Below are positions 1,640 to 11,922 of a stretch of DNA of 20,000 nucleotides, one piece after another. Made by a program: the position numbers and the translations under genes. The stretch is from Spizellomyces punctatus DAOM BR117 (taxonomy: Eukaryota): assembly GCA_000182565.2 (NCBI GenBank), contig KQ257454.1; one strand, given 5' to 3'. Numbering within the stretch: the first letter of the stretch is position 1; each line of letters starts with the position of its first letter. Under the pieces are notes generated by a model, which was not told the origin of the DNA, searched no databases, and saw only the letters and a program-made list of their open reading frames with translations.

Positions 1640-1906
1640 GTATAAGATCTGAGGCCGGAGTTTTGTAAATAGATGTATATTGCATTAGAATACCCATGAT
1701 TTGATTACGGAAAAGCTCCGCGAATCGATAGTTCCCATGTTTATGAGGAATCCATATTTTCATGTTGGTTTGTATAGATCGCGTATCAGGTGATTGTGAG
1801 GAGAATCACCAGAAAACGCCTGAAAGCCATGGACGCAGCAACATTGAATATGCGCTCATAGTCGTTGGTTGTGCATGCGCACTTATCTGCAGTGGGACTC
1901 GTCCTA

Positions 1907-2971
1907 CTATGCAAATCCCGTTTCCTTCATTTTCCTTCTAACCAGGTCTTCGGTAGTCTGTATCTGGTCTTCCAAAGACATGTTTGAACTGTCCACCACA
2001 ACAGCGTCATCGGCCTTCAATAGAGGTCCTACTTCACGGGTCCGATCCGACAAATCTCTAGCCTCAATTTCCTTTAGCACTGTTTCCAGATCTGGAAGAT
2101 CACCCTTGGATTGCTTTCTCTGGAGTTCCTCCAACCGCCGCTTAGCTCTAACAAGTGGATCTGCTTCAAAAAAGATTTTGAGATGGGCTTGTTTAAGGAC
2201 GTTGGTGCCAATGTCTCGGCCGTCCATTACGACGCCGCTGGGGACTTGTGACTCGGGCGACACGTCTTTTGGGGCCAATTCAGCACAAAGGTCACCGAGT
2301 TCTTTTATCTGGTCCTTGAGACTTTGAACCTGTGCGAAATCTCCTTCGGAAGTTGCCGTAAATAGGGCCTTCTCAAGCTCGATCTTTTCCTGGAGGAACA
2401 TTGCGTACTCGGAATCAGCACTCGCCTCCTCGGGTGGGGGCTGCCCTTCCTTTCCTTCAGCAATAGCTCGCTGTTTGGAGCACAGAACCTCTCGTACTGA
2501 GGGTAAAGCTGCTATAGGGGCTACGGCGCGCGTGATCATTGGCAATCGGATCTCATCCGTCACATCGACCCCGTCCAAGTACACGTGCGTTATAGCTGTT
2601 CTGGCGTTATCCAGCTGATCAACGGGAAGTTGGGGTGTACGAAAAGCAAAATTGGTTTGAGAGGCCATATTTGTGATGGTTTGAGCGTCTTTCGTAGGGT
2701 CCAGATTCCACGCCATAGCTTTGAGTGTCAAGCCTCGATACATTGCCCCAGAGTCGATATATGTGAAGCCTAGACGCGACGCCACTGCACGGGCGGTCGT
2801 GCTTTTCCCGGACGCTGCTGGGCCATCTATGGCCACTTGGAAGCTCTTAATTGATGTGGAATAGTATTGGACTCTGGCGACAGGGAACAGGTTGGCGTTG
2901 AAGAGCGGAGATCGGAACCCTAGCACGGAGAGTCTGGGCTTAGGAAGCCAGTTTGCATAAACATGAAGCAT
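1907..2971 (-). CDS. cmk: Bacterial-type cytidylate kinase ((d)CMP kinase) with N-terminal presequence-like extension and ~70-aa internal insertion; true start uncertain
   Basis: Uninterrupted ORF with Cmk signature motifs VAIDGPAASGKST (P-loop), YIDSGAMYR, LDGVDVTDEIR, QRAIA, GVVMDGRDIGT, EADPLVRAKRR, RDLSDRTREVGPL and DAVVVDSSNMS. Confidence 0.92.
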   Translation of the reverse strand: MLHVYANWLPKPRLSVLGFRSPLFNANLFPVARVQYYSTSIKSFQVAIDGPAASGKSTTARAVASRLGFTYIDSGAMYRGLTLKAMAWNLDPTKDAQTITNMASQTNFAFRTPQLPVDQLDNARTAITHVYLDGVDVTDEIRLPMITRAVAPIAALPSVREVLCSKQRAIAEGKEGQPPPEEASADSEYAMFLQEKIELEKALFTATSEGDFAQVQSLKDQIKELGDLCAELAPKDVSPESQVPSGVVMDGRDIGTNVLKQAHLKIFFEADPLVRAKRRLEELQRKQSKGDLPDLETVLKEIEARDLSDRTREVGPLLKADDAVVVDSSNMSLEDQIQTTEDLVRRKMKETGFA

Positions 2972-3235
2972 AAACAGAGAAAGATGATAAGATGTGAAAA
3001 CGTTATAAAGGCTCTAAAGAAGATGAAAAGATGCTCCTTACCTGCAACATGTTTCAGAGAAGGAGGGAGGATGGCGATGAATGATCTCAAAGGCGACTCG
3101 TGCAGCAATGTCCAAATAAATCGATGATCGGCTTAGTAAGCAATGAGTCAGCAATTTTGTGACTTGAGGTGCCGACACTGGGTCTTGTTTGAATTGTTGG
3201 GTCTTCCTGTGCGATCACCGTAGCGACGGAAGAGA

Positions 3236-5783: not shown

Positions 5784-6554
5784 TCATCCTAAAAGATTTG
5801 ATTTTCCAACTGCATACCCAACGGCAGCGGCCGCAGCAGCGAAGCCAACCAGCCATCCCACTACCTTGTTGTCAATCAACGAAAGGCCCCGACGCGCTAC
5901 AGTACCATGCGTGAATTCCGCCCCATCTCGTACATAATATCTTGCAAACAAGTCGTTTTGAATCCACAACAGCTTTGATAATGCTGCCAACGTCTTTGCC
6001 CTTCCCTCCGGATCTGCCTGCAAGGCCGGGTGTGCATCCAGGGTCTCGATCAAGAACCCATGTAGCCAGGCAAACAGAGCATTGACGTGAATGTATTCAA
6101 CGTTGATTTTTGACTTTTTCGACGGCGTATCAGTATGAATCTTGCCCACCCAATCCAAGTACGTCACGAAAGCCTTGTCGTACGACCCAGTCACCAGTTT
6201 TACGAGATATTTTCCCAAAAAGTCTTTTCTGAATTTGATTTGCTCCGAATCCAAGACAAGATGATCCAAGTCGCTGGCGAGCTGACCCTCAAACCCCTGA
6301 TTCCGCTGCAAAAAGACGCCCTTGGTAATGTCAAACGAAAAGAGACGCTCGTAAACCTTATCCACAATCGTTGGGACAAGAGGAGCGACAAGGGGAGCGG
6401 CTGCCTTGAGAGCAGCGATATCGGTTTCGTTAAAGTTTGCAAATTCCGAGACGTACGTGAAGCGGTAGTACGTGTCAGTGTAAAGACGCGGTCTGTCAAT
6501 GTGTTTGGGAGCCGCGGGCGTAGGAGTTGTTGAAGTCGGATTAAGAGGAGCCAT
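5784..6554 (-). CDS. Protoglobin/globin-sensor-type single-domain globin with C-terminal hydrophobic (putative tail-anchor) segment
   Basis: Intronless 256-aa ORF. RFTYVSEFANFNETDIAAL, IVDKVYERLFSF, YLDWVGKIHT (candidate proximal His), INVEYIHVNAL and ALSKLLWIQNDLF resemble fungal and bacterial protoglobin-family sensor globins. It ends in VVGWLVGFAAAAAAVGYAVGKSNLLG. Confidence 0.82.
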   Translation of the reverse strand: MAPLNPTSTTPTPAAPKHIDRPRLYTDTYYRFTYVSEFANFNETDIAALKAAAPLVAPLVPTIVDKVYERLFSFDITKGVFLQRNQGFEGQLASDLDHLVLDSEQIKFRKDFLGKYLVKLVTGSYDKAFVTYLDWVGKIHTDTPSKKSKINVEYIHVNALFAWLHGFLIETLDAHPALQADPEGRAKTLAALSKLLWIQNDLFARYYVRDGAEFTHGTVARRGLSLIDNKVVGWLVGFAAAAAAVGYAVGKSNLLG

Positions 6555-10100: not shown

Positions 10101-11922
10101 AGCGCTGTAAGCCTTTATTGCCGTTCACGGATCCGTCTGCCCACCACACCTTTTCAACCCGCCTCTCATTAACGAAGGCTTTCCATTCTGCAAAGGTCAG
10201 CCGTTTCAAACGCCACCGAAAGTGTTCGACACCCGCTTTAACCTCTTCAAGTTCGCGTAGCCGCACATGGGCTGCGTTTAATGTGCGCCAACGATGCCAC
10301 GCACTTCGCAATACCTATTGTGACGCAGGTTAATGGACAATGTCCAAGGCATCAAGTCCGTCTATTTCAACGGCCCAGCTACCCACACAACACCTTACGG
10401 CAATACTGCATGTCTGCACCCTCACTCAGTCGCGGTAGAGCTTTCAAACATCTGAGGCTTCGACGCTAGGTGGATCGGGAATTTCTGTCACAACAGACAG
10501 TAGACAAGAATGCGACGGCATTTCGGCATACCTTTAGCAGGGAATCATAGAACTTTTGCGCCTTTTGCATCGAGAGACGCTGTTCTGCCGCCACCGATTG
10601 GTCTGCAAATACACCACATGCCTGTTAGAAGGCCCACGTACGAACTCACGGCCCCCTTTGACTGCCTACATGTCTGCCAGCCATGGAAGATAACTCGCAG
10701 CATTTTTTCTCGATGGTGGTGCCGAGCAACGTTTTCCAATTCGACCATAGCAAGTCTATGGTAATACTTTAGGTGCCAGAGATGCAGTGCGGATCGCGCC
10801 AGGTGGCGGTTGCTGAAGACTATTGCTCGTTCTGTGCACACAAGAATCAATGAGATGTGTTTCTGTACGCTGTCCAGTTGAACGACACGCACCAATTTCA
10901 CTTTTTCGCATATCCTTCATCTCGATGGCGCTGATCCACCGCTGCATGACGACGCGTAACAGTGTTCGTTGATTGAACTTCAGGGCGAACGCTGCCCTTC
11001 GCGCGGTTTCTCGTCTTGTTGCATAAAGTCTAATCCATTTGCTCATCCATTTTCGAGTAACATTCAACTTCCAAAGAACGTCCGCCGATTGCATTGTGGC
11101 CTTTTTCTGATTGTTGATGTTGTGTTTTTGACGCCAATCCTTCCAAGCCTGCTCCATCTTCTTGTTCGCGTAATGCTTCGTTGCATCCGAATAGCGCAAG
11201 CTTAGCGCATGTTGTAGTTCTCGCTGTTGTCGCCACGTACGAAGCGCCTGGCGCAGCCGAAGGTGGTGACCTGTGGAATAGATACTCGTTAGACGGCAGT
11301 TTAAGCCGCAGATCATGACGAATGTAGCAGTAGGTTGCCCACCAAGAATCGCAGCTTGATCTTTGACAGTGCGATCACCAGTGCGGGTTCTTATGTACGA
11401 CCTCCAACCCCGCCAAGCTCGCAAACTCAGGATATATTTCCAGTGAACATCAGCTTTAACATGATTTCTCCAATCAATGCGTGCCCTCGCAAATGCTTGC
11501 CGCCACCGCCGCAAGGTGGACATCAGTAGAGTGTGGATATAATGACTTTCTGCAAGCTTGCGGTTGCGTCTCCTTCTCACTAGCATTTTCCACTGTTTGA
11601 CGGAGCGCACCGCGAGAGCAAGATCGCGCTCATTCAACATTAGGCCTTCACTTGTCAATTGTTCCAACGGTATCTGTGCAGGGTCGCGATGGGATGCAAC
11701 TGGGAGTCGTGAGGCAGTCTTTGACACGCCCTTCGGACGCTCGTTCGCACGAAATTTCGTTCCTTTCTCGTCTGCATGCCCATCACGAGTAATAGTGGTT
11801 TGAGTCCAGAGGTTGCGTCCCGTCAAACCTTTGTTAAGCAGGCGACCCAGTCCCAAGTGATGCCCAGCTGTGCCGACGGTGTTGCCTTTGAGTTCGTGGC
11901 CGCTGTGGGCCATCATAGTCAT
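7115..11922 (-). CDS. SFI1: Sfi1-like centrin-binding repeat protein (centriole/spindle pole body); multi-exon
   Basis: A chain of minus-strand exons separated by short GT-AG introns (e.g. 11342-11271, 10892-10832, donor at 10669). It encodes basic, Trp-containing helical repeats (TLRRWRQAF, AWRGWRSYI, ALRTWRQ, AWKDWRQ, VMQRWISAI, IFHGWQTY, AWHRWRTL, TFAEWKAF, SMRTWRER, TFHAWIEYV) typical of Sfi1 repeats, then a Pro/Ser-rich region and a C-terminal coiled coil ending at the TGA at 7115. Not all internal exon boundaries were resolved. Confidence 0.8.

What the first reader, a model, noticed from the sequence alone, without database searches (positions are those of the whole stretch)
1907..2971. 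Bacterial-type Cmk in a fungal nuclear genome with a mitochondrial-presequence-like N-terminus
Seen in sequence: a complete set of bacterial Cmk motifs in an intron-free kinase domain lying between multi-intron genes. The first ~43 aa (…PRLSVLGFRSPLFNANLFPVARVQYYSTSIK) are Arg/Ser/Leu/Phe-rich, lack acidic residues, and end in an R-x-x-Y-Y-S segment reminiscent of MPP/Icp55 cleavage regions. Established: model fungi and animals make CDP mainly with adenylate-kinase-family UMP-CMP kinase (Ura6/CMPK1), and bacterial Cmk is not a usual fungal gene. Inference: a horizontally acquired or retained endosymbiotic gene providing a mitochondrial (d)CMP kinase, analogous in function to animal CMPK2.
Basis: partly seen in the sequence, partly recalled or inferred. 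Interest (0 to 1): 0.72.

Follow-up and report, generated by a model that had tools for sequence, protein, structure and literature searches.

The report
Old fungal bacterial-type CMP kinase gene
This chytrid fungus gene encodes a bacterial-style CMP kinase that is already annotated, is shared by nearly all non-Dikarya fungal lineages rather than being a recent import, and probably carries a mitochondrial address tag.

Summary
Window 1907-2971 (-) is an open 354-aa frame with a full bacterial-type (d)CMP kinase domain (PF02224 191.6 bits; TIGR00017 189.9 bits, cut-off 135.55).

- **Identity:** the window is Spizellomyces punctatus DAOM BR117, and the protein is already in GenBank as "cytidylate kinase".
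- **Gene model:** the annotated model has a 9-nt first exon and a 103-nt intron. The mRNA is polyadenylated.
- **Distribution:** the gene is not an oddity of this fungus. Homologues occur in Chytridiomycota, Monoblepharomycota, Blastocladiomycota, Zoopagomycota, Mucoromycota and Microsporidia. No Dikarya appeared among 111 named fungal hits.
- **Phylogeny:** the fungal sequences form one clade (100/99) next to Calditrichota-like bacteria (99/94). An alphaproteobacterial sister is not rejected (p-AU 0.11 and 0.47).
- **Targeting:** 34 of 60 fungal homologues have N-terminal extensions of at least 15 aa, almost free of acidic residues, and 23 carry R-x-[FYL]-[SAT]. Mitochondrial targeting is plausible but unproven.
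- **Insertion:** S. punctatus also has a roughly 72-aa helical-hairpin insertion with no relatives found.

This is an ordinary family member with a modest, apparently unpublished evolutionary story.

The parts
3042..3050 (-). Exon 1 of the annotated gene (ATG TTG CAG, Met-Leu-Gln)
   Evidence: Exon 1 + exon 2 translate letter for letter to GenBank protein P0001. A at -3 before this ATG (TGAAACATG), against T at -3 before the ATG at 2971.
2939..3041 (-). 103-nt spliceosomal intron (GTAAGG...CCTAAG).
   Evidence: Not confirmed by reads: the RNA run covers only the 3' end. Unspliced, the frame from ATG 3050 stops after 15 codons.
1907..2938 (-). Exon 2: rest of the CDS (residues 4-346) and the TAG stop at 1907-1909
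2843..2938 (-). Presequence-like N-terminal extension (residues 4-35: PRLSVLGFRSPLFNANLFPVARVQYYSTSIKS)
   Evidence: - 4 basic, 0 acidic, 6 Ser/Thr in the 37 residues before the first strand.
- AF2 pLDDT below 50 for residues 1-31.
- Bacterial homologues have a median of 6 residues here.
- No Met between residue 1 and residue 69, so no shorter isoform with an intact P-loop is possible.
2459..2842 (-). N-terminal half of the Cmk domain (residues 36-163), including the P-loop G42-T50 at 2798-2824 and the NMP-binding part (S66, R71, R152)
2237..2458 (-). Lineage-specific in-frame insertion (residues about 164-237), predicted as a two-helix hairpin
   Evidence: - It splits the PDB and Pfam matches into two stretches.
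- AF2 helices 180-201 and 204-224, block pLDDT 80-91.
- Mostly absent from Fimicolochytrium jonesii: 60 gap columns.
- A search with residues 160-240 found only the protein itself among 99 candidates.
- None of 78 in-frame GT/GC..AG pairs has a consensus-like donor.
1910..2236 (-). C-terminal half of the Cmk domain (residues 238-346): MDGRDIGT motif (R244, D245), R270, R297, D301, R304
1661..1906 (-). 3' UTR with the poly(A) site near 1661
   Evidence: Stranded RNA run X9 has depth 28-49 on the minus strand over 1692-1947. Eight reads carry a loose T-run before 1661.

Best explanation
This is the nuclear, expressed cmk gene of Spizellomyces punctatus, a bona fide bacterial-type (d)CMP kinase (ATP + CMP/dCMP -> ADP + CDP/dCDP).

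- **Origin:** it belongs to one old fungal clade that entered the fungal stem from a bacterium. Calditrichota-like bacteria are the nearest sampled relatives. The gene was then inherited vertically through Chytridiomycota, Monoblepharomycota, Blastocladiomycota, Zoopagomycota and Mucoromycota, and it is also present in Microsporidia. It appears to be missing from Dikarya.
- **Targeting:** in S. punctatus every translatable form carries a roughly 35-aa basic, acid-free N-terminal extension. This most likely acts as a mitochondrial presequence. The enzyme would then make (d)CDP inside the matrix for mtDNA/RNA synthesis and CDP-diacylglycerol, as CMPK2 is thought to do in animals.
- **Insertion:** a roughly 72-aa helical hairpin inserted in a surface loop is specific to this species or genus. 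Its role is unknown.

Shown here: family membership, conserved active-site residues, nuclear eukaryotic context, polyadenylated mRNA, the fungal clade and its distribution. Inferred: enzyme activity, mitochondrial import, and loss in Dikarya.
For: **Family**
- PF02224 191.6 bits and TIGR00017 189.9 bits (cut-off 135.55).
- Best PDB sequence match is Cmk 1q3t at 4.2e-39.
- The AF2 model has mean pLDDT 82.8. Its 17 best listed Foldseek hits are all Cmk structures (E 1.7e-15 to 1e-9, TMt 0.72-0.86).
- K48, R71, R152, R244, D245, R270, R297, D301 and R304 are invariant in 49 of 49 fungal rows and in 91-92 of 92 bacterial rows.

**Nuclear and expressed**
- 100% identical to a GenBank protein on a 1.54-Mb contig.
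- Neighbours are Pus10_N_euk, PEX11 and SRP19. GC is even across the window.
- The annotated model has a GT..AG intron.
- Minus-strand RNA depth reaches 49, and 8 reads carry a poly(A) tail at 1661.

**Old fungal clade**
- 100 of 120 best profile hits are named non-Dikarya fungi.
- 11 of 20 hand-picked representatives are further fungi: Allomyces, Blastocladiella, Paraphysoderma, Phlyctochytrium, Gonapodya, Furculomyces, Smittium, Neoconidiobolus, Geosiphon and a Mortierella (taxonomy).
- Fungi form one clade at UFBoot/SH-aLRT 100/99 (25 rows), SH-aLRT 92 (49 rows) and 95 (36 rows). S. punctatus pairs with F. jonesii (100/99).
- Fungi plus Calditrichota-like bacteria get 99/94.
- The P-loop DGPAASGKST is identical in 9 of 9 Calditrichota rows. 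All 6 alphaproteobacterial rows have GKG.
- Median identity of S. punctatus is 46.3% to Calditrichota and 37.2% to Alphaproteobacteria.

**Presequence**
- 34 of 60 fungal homologues have at least 15 residues before the first strand, against 9 of 119 bacterial rows.
- 32 of those 34 have at most 1 acidic and at least 3 basic residues.
- The acidic fraction is 0.009 in the extensions and 0.138 in the mature parts.
- 23 of 34 carry R-x-[FYL]-[SAT]. Shuffled extensions give a mean of 6.0 and a maximum of 13 in 500 shuffles.
- The motif definition is from PMC7723863 (passages read).
- There is no Met between residues 1 and 69.
Against: **Targeting**
- S. punctatus itself has no strict R-x-[FYL]-[SAT] motif, only RVQYYS.
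- Its best 11-residue hydrophobic moment is a moderate 0.45.
- No dedicated predictor (TargetP, MitoFates) could be run.
- Its closest relative, F. jonesii, has only 11 residues before the domain in its annotated model. That model may be truncated.
- 26 of 60 fungal homologues lack an extension, including 15 of 15 Mucorales with a conserved MSRLFR start. Targeting is therefore not universal in the clade.
- 7 of the 23 motif hits (6 Kickxellales and Furculomyces) abut the first strand and may be part of the domain.

**Origin**
- AU tests do not reject fungi plus Alphaproteobacteria as one clade: delta lnL 2.0, p 0.471 on 142 rows; delta lnL 22.8, p 0.111 on 92 rows.
- Only 6 Alphaproteobacteria were sampled, with no Rickettsiales.
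- The bacterial sample was chosen by likeness to the fungal query, and the genome scan used fungal-type motifs.

**Distribution**
- Absence from Dikarya rests on top-hit lists only.
- Microsporidian sequences could not be placed in the tree.

**Gene model**
- RNA reads cover only the 3' end, so the intron and the insertion are not confirmed by reads.
Confidence: 0.55

Rival explanations
1. Same old fungal Cmk, but cytosolic or dual-localised. The N-terminal extension would be a disordered tail with no import function, and the enzyme would simply add CMP kinase capacity beside an AK-type UMP-CMP kinase.
For: - No canonical R-2/R-3 motif in S. punctatus and only a moderate amphipathic moment of 0.45.
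- 26 of 60 fungal homologues have no extension, including 15 of 15 Mucorales and the annotated F. jonesii model.
- The microsporidian E. cuniculi chain is only 229 aa.
Against: - Extensions with the same acid-free, Arg-rich make-up recur in Blastocladiomycota, Chytridiomycota, Kickxellomycotina, Basidiobolus, Mortierellomycotina and Glomeromycotina: 32 of 34 long extensions.
- 12 of 12 Mortierellomycotina rows have R-x-[FY]-[SAT] several residues upstream of the domain.
- Conserved character with unconserved sequence is typical of presequences.
Confidence: 0.27
2. The fungal Cmk descends from the mitochondrial (alphaproteobacterial) endosymbiont. It would have been retained only in fungi and lost from other eukaryotes, rather than coming from a later transfer.
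For: - The AU tests do not reject fungi plus Alphaproteobacteria as one clade: p 0.471 and p 0.111.
- A presequence-bearing product would suit an organelle-derived gene.
Against: - ML trees place fungi with Calditrichota-like bacteria (99/94). The Alphaproteobacteria sit apart behind several supported branches (100/93, 99/89).
- The constrained tree is 22.8 lnL units worse.
- P-loop GKS in fungi against GKG in 6 of 6 Alphaproteobacteria, and 37.2% against 46.3% median identity.
- No non-fungal eukaryote turned up except one amoebozoan transcriptome sequence that nests among the bacteria.
Confidence: 0.12
3. Recent horizontal transfer from a bacterium into Spizellomyces or Spizellomycetales, which is the narrow form of the first reader's reading.
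For: The kinase domain has no intron, and the best non-self hit is only 39% identical by BLASTP.
Against: - S. punctatus plus F. jonesii nest inside a fungal clade of 25 to 49 rows. A third chytrid, Phlyctochytrium, joins them at SH-aLRT 83.
- GC is even with the flanks.
- The gene model has a spliceosomal intron at its 5' end.
Confidence: 0.02
4. Assembly contamination by bacterial DNA.
For: None beyond the bacterial family of the protein.
Against: - 1.54-Mb contig with eukaryotic neighbours on both sides.
- Polyadenylated, strand-specific RNA reads.
- Contigs of three other runs with the same species label hold the stretch with 0 differences. They may be the source sample, so this is not independent support.
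Confidence: 0.01

Closest known systems
Bacterial cytidylate kinase Cmk (E. coli CMK, PDB 1CKE/2CMK/1KDO; S. pneumoniae 1Q3T; S. aureus 2H92)
   Same: - Same Pfam and NCBIfam family above the curated cut-offs.
- Same fold (Foldseek E 1.7e-15 to 1e-12, TMt 0.74-0.86).
- Same P-loop and the same Arg/Asp residues at all checked E. coli positions.
   Different: - Encoded in a eukaryotic nucleus, with a 5' intron and a poly(A) tail.
- About 35 extra N-terminal residues of presequence-like make-up.
- A roughly 72-aa helical insertion before the MDGRD strand.
- E. coli S101 is Ala here.
Encephalitozoon cuniculi cytidylate kinase (PDB 7L4A), a microsporidian member with a solved structure; a Trachipleistophora hominis cytidylate kinase is noted as a weak LGT candidate in PMC3486916 (passage read)
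   Same: A bacterial-type Cmk encoded by a member of the fungal lineage. Sequence match E 8.9e-28; fold match E 8.6e-13.
   Different: - The chain is 229 aa, so it has no long N-terminal extension or insertion.
- I could not place it in the tree because its sequence is not held as a usable record.
- That microsporidia have no mitochondrial genome is recalled, not from a call.
Animal CMPK2 (mitochondrial UMP-CMP kinase 2)
   Same: It is the proposed functional analogue: a matrix enzyme that phosphorylates (d)CMP/UMP in mitochondrial nucleotide salvage (review PMC12493167, passages read).
   Different: CMPK2 is not a Cmk-family protein. That it belongs to the thymidylate-kinase-like group is recalled, not tested here. 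Localisation of the fungal protein is only predicted.
AK-family UMP-CMP kinases (yeast Ura6, human CMPK1, Dictyostelium UMP/CMP kinase)
   Same: P-loop NMP kinase superfamily; makes CDP from CMP.
   Different: - A different family. The adenylate-kinase NCBIfam models score 15.8-20.7 bits against cut-offs of 315-373.
- Structures 1UKY, 1UKE and 5UKD match only at E 0.013-0.05, TMq 0.31-0.33.
- Whether S. punctatus also has such an enzyme could not be checked, because no genome is held.

Membership tests
Bacterial-type cytidylate kinase (PF02224 / TIGR00017 cmk) | Profile score above the curated cut-offs | tested here: met
   PF02224 191.6 bits (cut-off 26); TIGR00017 189.9 bits (cut-off 135.55)
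Bacterial-type cytidylate kinase (PF02224 / TIGR00017 cmk) | P-loop G-x4-G-K-[ST] and the conserved Arg/Asp residues at the E. coli CMK substrate-site positions (R41, R110, R131, D132, R157, R181, D185, R188). The roles of these residues are recalled from the E. coli literature. | tested here: met
   G42-PAAS-G47-K48-S49-T50. R71, R152, R244, D245, R270, R297, D301 and R304 are all present. S101 is replaced by A143, as in 12 of 49 fungal rows.
Bacterial-type cytidylate kinase (PF02224 / TIGR00017 cmk) | Cmk fold | tested here: met
   AF2 model pLDDT 82.8. The 17 best listed Foldseek PDB hits are all CMP kinases.
Bacterial-type cytidylate kinase (PF02224 / TIGR00017 cmk) | CMP/dCMP kinase activity | not testable with these tools
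   Needs an enzyme assay or complementation of an E. coli cmk mutant
Matrix-targeted mitochondrial precursor (cleavable presequence) | N-terminal extension relative to non-targeted homologues; rich in Arg/Ser/Leu and poor in acidic residues | tested here: met
   37 residues against a bacterial median of 6; 4 basic, 0 acidic. Across homologues the acidic fraction is 0.009 in extensions and 0.138 in mature parts.
Matrix-targeted mitochondrial precursor (cleavable presequence) | Amphipathic helix | tested here: inconclusive
   The maximum 11-residue hydrophobic moment is 0.45, lower than in most homologues (0.5-0.98). AF2 leaves residues 1-31 unstructured.
Matrix-targeted mitochondrial precursor (cleavable presequence) | MPP/Icp55 cleavage motif (R-2 / R-3; definition in PMC7723863) | tested here: inconclusive
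   S. punctatus has no strict R-x-[FYL]-[SAT] motif, only RVQYYS. 23 of 34 homologues with long extensions have it, against a shuffled mean of 6.0.
Matrix-targeted mitochondrial precursor (cleavable presequence) | Positive call by a trained predictor, or experimental localisation | not testable with these tools
   TargetP, MitoFates and microscopy are not available here
Lineage-specific (recent) bacterial HGT into Spizellomyces | Absent from related fungi, and branching with bacteria apart from other fungal copies | tested here: not met
   Present in F. jonesii, Phlyctochytrium and at least five other fungal phyla. All fungal rows form one clade.
Endosymbiotic (alphaproteobacterial) gene transfer | Sister to Alphaproteobacteria | tested here: inconclusive
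   ML trees say no: Calditrichota-like bacteria are the sister at 99/94. The AU tests do not reject it (p 0.471; p 0.111).
AK-family UMP-CMP kinase (Ura6/CMPK1) | Match to adenylate/UMP-CMP kinase profiles and fold | tested here: not met
   Adenylate-kinase models score 15.8-20.7 bits against cut-offs of 315-373. UMP/CMP kinase structures match only at E 0.013-0.05.

The most novel reading that the evidence does not exclude
The fungal ancestor captured a cmk gene from a Calditrichota/FCB-like bacterium and fitted it with a presequence. It then served as the mitochondrion's own (d)CMP kinase, a non-homologous counterpart of animal CMPK2. Dikarya later lost it and rely on nucleotide import. Mucorales, Umbelopsis, Gonapodya and Microsporidia dropped the presequence and use it in the cytosol. 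This would make bacterial-type Cmk a clean marker separating early-diverging fungi from Dikarya. It would also be an enzyme present in Mucorales and Microsporidia but absent from their human hosts (the absence from humans is recalled, not tested).
Probability: 0.35. Interest if true: 0.55.

Novelty: new member of a known kind. Interest (0 to 1): 0.35.

Why it matters
The gene itself is ordinary and already annotated. What is mildly new is the pattern around it.

- A bacterial-type CMP kinase runs through almost every non-Dikarya fungal phylum.
- It often carries a presequence-like leader, and it did not appear in Dikarya.
- I found no paper describing this. Searches found none that links cytidylate kinase with early-diverging fungi, Dikarya, Mucorales, Mortierella, Rhizophagus, chytrids or Mucoromycota. 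The only related text is a microsporidian note on a weak LGT candidate.

If the mitochondrial reading is right, fungi and animals solved matrix (d)CMP phosphorylation with unrelated enzymes. It would also give a concrete case of loss of an organellar salvage step on the Dikarya stem. The enzyme could then be considered as a selective target in Mucorales and Microsporidia.

Tried and rejected
- **Whole-genome search of the window's assembly.** I wanted to look for a second cmk copy and an AK-type UMP-CMP kinase. No genome is held.
- **RNA evidence for the 5' intron and the insertion.** The only raw RNA run is 3'-biased. No reads lie over 2140-2840 on the gene's strand and no joints were seen, so this stays unconfirmed.
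- **Insertion as an unrecognised intron.** None of 78 in-frame GT/GC..AG pairs has a GT[AG]NG[TG]-like donor. GC and GC3 resemble the rest of the CDS (0.536/0.554 against 0.508/0.520). Rejected.
- **Relatives of the insertion.** A search with residues 160-240 returned only the protein itself (1 of 99 candidates).
- **ESM Atlas.** Only generic bacterial Cmk clusters at score 0.89. No help on distribution.
- **Earlier scan notes.** Nothing relevant.
- **Careful tree of the 106-row set.** It did not finish in 733 s, so the quick tree is reported for that set.
- **Placing microsporidian Cmk in the tree.** Not possible, because its sequence is not held as a usable record.
- **Neocallimastigomycota HGT preprint (10.1101/487215, passage read).** It lists a 'Cytidylate kinase-like family', which reads like the Pfam description of PF13189. 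I did not check which family the authors meant, so I did not use it.
- **Supplements.** Table S12 of PMC3486916 and the HGT tables of PMC11291939 (search listing only) are closed and may bear on the LGT claim.
Full report
**What is there**

The minus strand of window 1907-2971 holds an open frame of 354 aa.
- It matches Pfam Cytidylate_kin (PF02224) at E 1.8e-56 and 191.6 bits.
- It matches the NCBIfam equivalog TIGR00017 'cmk' at 189.9 bits against a curated cut-off of 135.55.
- The archaeal CMP kinase model (30.3 bits, cut-off 102.1) and the adenylate kinase models (15.8-20.7 bits, cut-offs 315-373) are far below threshold.
- Against PDB sequences the best match is the Cmk entry 1q3t (4.2e-39). 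Like all the matches, it comes in two stretches, ORF residues 40-172 and 245-340. The kinase domain is therefore interrupted by about 72 extra residues.
- An alignment with E. coli Cmk (locus L082) shows the P-loop and the positions R41, R110, R131, D132, R157, R181, D185 and R188 all conserved. Only S101 is replaced, by Ala. The roles of these residues are recalled from the E. coli literature, not taken from a call.

**Whose gene it is**

- The protein is 100% identical to GenBank 'cytidylate kinase [Spizellomyces punctatus DAOM BR117]' (P0001, 346 aa) on a 1.54-Mb contig. The gene is already annotated.
- The annotated model differs from the raw ORF at the 5' end. It has a 9-nt first exon (3042-3050, ATG TTG CAG) and a 103-nt GT..AG intron (2939-3041), followed by exon 2 (1907-2938).
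- I verified that these pieces translate exactly to P0001.
Both starts give the same PRLSVLGF... leader.
- The next Met is residue 69, behind the P-loop, so no leaderless functional isoform can be made from an AUG.

**Not contamination, and expressed**

- GC is even across the window (0.45-0.52).
- ORFs elsewhere in the window carry Pus10_N_euk, PEX11 and SRP19 domains.
- A stranded, 3'-biased RNA run with the same species label gives depth 28-49 on the gene's strand over 1692-1947. Eight reads carry a loose T-run before 1661, which marks a poly(A) site about 245 nt after the stop.
- The run does not reach the 5' part, so neither the intron nor the insertion is confirmed by reads.

**Distribution**

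- A single-sequence search already listed Mucorales, Mortierellomycotina, Glomeromycotina, Calcarisporiella and Coemansia among the 120 best hits.
- A profile of 18 fungal sequences (A2) returned 120 rows. By my count 100 carry a fungal species name, all non-Dikarya. They include a second member of Spizellomycetales, Fimicolochytrium jonesii (46% identity).
- A full HMMER scan of 1.84 billion representatives found 32,027 proteins at E <= 0.001.
- I hand-picked 20 of the 150 best for rank or for a long N-terminus and looked up their names. Eleven are further fungi: Allomyces, Blastocladiella, Paraphysoderma, Phlyctochytrium, two Gonapodya, Furculomyces, Smittium, Neoconidiobolus, Geosiphon and a 985-aa Mortierella model. 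Three are bacterial and six are unnamed (lineages checked).
- PDB entry 7L4A is a cytidylate kinase of the microsporidian Encephalitozoon cuniculi.
- The Trachipleistophora hominis genome paper mentions a cytidylate kinase as a weak LGT candidate (PMC3486916, passage read).
- No Dikarya and no convincing non-fungal eukaryote appeared. The one EukProt hit from an amoebozoan transcriptome nests among Calditrichota-like bacteria, and I read it as probable bacterial carry-over.
- These are top-hit lists, not a census.

**Phylogeny**

I combined four sets of sequences:
- the fungal proteins;
- the closest bacterial and metagenome hits;
- Cmk ORFs from the 80 best prokaryote loci (the scan used the fungal-type motifs MDGRDIGT and [IV]AIDGPAAS and is biased accordingly);
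- 13 outgroups taken from E. coli K-12 and from chromosome-like records in the plasmid collection, including six Alphaproteobacteria.

| Tree | Fungi as one clade | Fungi + Calditrichota-like rows | Alphaproteobacteria |
|---|---|---|---|
| Quick, 142 rows | 49 rows, SH-aLRT 92 | 74 rows, 96 | separate, 98 |
| Careful, 92 rows | 25 rows, 100/99 | 46 rows, 99/94 | separate, 100/98, behind branches of 100/93 and 99/89 |
| Quick, 106 rows (extra fungal lineages) | 36 rows, 95 | 57 rows, 95 | separate, 97 |

- In the 106-row tree the chytrids, the Blastocladiomycota and Harpellales+Kickxellales each group together. The careful search on this set did not finish.
- The inner groups mostly follow taxonomy, as expected for vertical descent.

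Against a firm donor call:
- Holding fungi and Alphaproteobacteria together costs only 2.0 lnL units on the 142-row set (p-AU 0.471).
- It costs 22.8 units on the 92-row set (p-AU 0.111).
- A mitochondrial origin is therefore disfavoured but not rejected.

Softer signs point the same way as the ML trees:
- The fungal P-loop DGPAASGKS[TS] equals that of 9 of 9 Calditrichota rows, while all six alphaproteobacterial rows have GKG.
- Median identity of the S. punctatus protein is 46.3% to Calditrichota and 37.2% to Alphaproteobacteria.

**The N-terminus**

- Before the first strand, S. punctatus has 37 residues with 4 basic and 0 acidic. AF2 leaves residues 1-31 unstructured.
- Across 60 fungal homologues, 34 have at least 15 residues there, against 9 of 119 bacterial rows.
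- 32 of the 34 have at most 1 acidic and at least 3 basic residues.
- Acidic residues make up 0.9% of the extensions and 13.8% of the mature parts.
- 23 of 34 contain R-x-[FYL]-[SAT]. Shuffled extensions give a mean of 6.0 and a maximum of 13 in 500 shuffles. This is the R-2/R-3 pattern of MPP plus Icp55 as defined in PMC7723863 (passages read).
- Seven of the 23 (six Kickxellales and Furculomyces) have the motif directly at the domain edge and should be discounted.
- All 12 Mortierellomycotina rows, three Blastocladiomycota and Diversispora have it several residues upstream.
- S. punctatus itself fails the strict pattern (RVQYYS). Its hydrophobic moment (0.45) is moderate.
- 26 homologues have no extension, including 15 of 15 Mucorales with a conserved MSRLFR start, both Umbelopsis, both Gonapodya and the annotated F. 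jonesii model.
- My reading is that a presequence is widespread, and perhaps ancestral, in the clade and was dropped in some lineages.
- Mitochondrial import in S. punctatus is likely, at about 0.6, but not shown.

If it is imported, the enzyme would supply (d)CDP in the matrix. This is the step assigned to the unrelated CMPK2 in animals (review PMC12493167, passages read).

**The insertion**

- Residues about 164-237 lie between the helix ending at 163 and the MDGRD strand.
- AF2 predicts two long helices (180-201 and 204-224) with block pLDDT 80-91.
- Other fungal homologues have shorter, unrelated insertions at the same loop. Bacteria have none.
- F. jonesii lacks most of it.
- A search with residues 160-240 found only the protein itself.
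- It is unlikely to be a missed intron. Its function is unknown.

**Verdict**

The gene is of bacterial type, and a mitochondrial role is plausible.
- It is wrong in treating the gene as unusual for fungi or as a lineage-specific import.
- The gene is a regular, annotated Cmk family member.
- I found no paper describing the surrounding pattern of a pan-early-diverging-fungal clade, frequent presequences and no Dikarya. That pattern is worth a modest follow-up.

Noticed in passing
window 5784-6554 (-): A 256-aa ORF with a strong Protoglobin domain (PF11563, E 6e-42). I recall this globin type mainly from archaea and bacteria, so it is worth a look in a chytrid genome.
   Followed up: no
window 1661-1714: Convergent transcripts overlap at their 3' ends. 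The plus-strand neighbour is polyadenylated at about 1714 (6 reads with a loose A-run). The cmk mRNA on the minus strand ends at about 1661 (8 reads). The overlap is about 54 nt.
   Followed up: partly
P0199 (Mortierella antarctica, 985 aa); P0166 (Coemansia sp. RSA 1933, 477 aa, DnaJ + Cmk + zf-CSL): Much longer fungal gene models contain the Cmk domain. They may be merged neighbouring genes or real fusions.
   Followed up: no
P0200 cluster (28 members, 451-460 aa, metagenomes): An unnamed cluster scoring as high as the fungal sequences against the fungal profile (E 7.2e-90), with Cmk at residues 3-224 and about 230 further residues. It was not identified and was not included in the trees.
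   Followed up: no
P0072 (EukProt, Paradermamoeba levis transcriptome): A Cmk without an N-terminal extension that nests among Calditrichota-like bacteria in the trees. Probably bacterial carry-over in the transcriptome rather than an amoebozoan gene.
   Followed up: partly
plasmid collection: 73 'plasmid' records hold cmk. Several are chromosome-sized, for example 4.8-4.9-Mb E. coli records and an 11.9-Mb Nonomuraea record, so they look like mislabelled chromosomes or chromids.
   Followed up: no
window 10756-11922 (-): The longest ORF in the window (388 aa) has no Pfam match at E <= 0.001.
   Followed up: no
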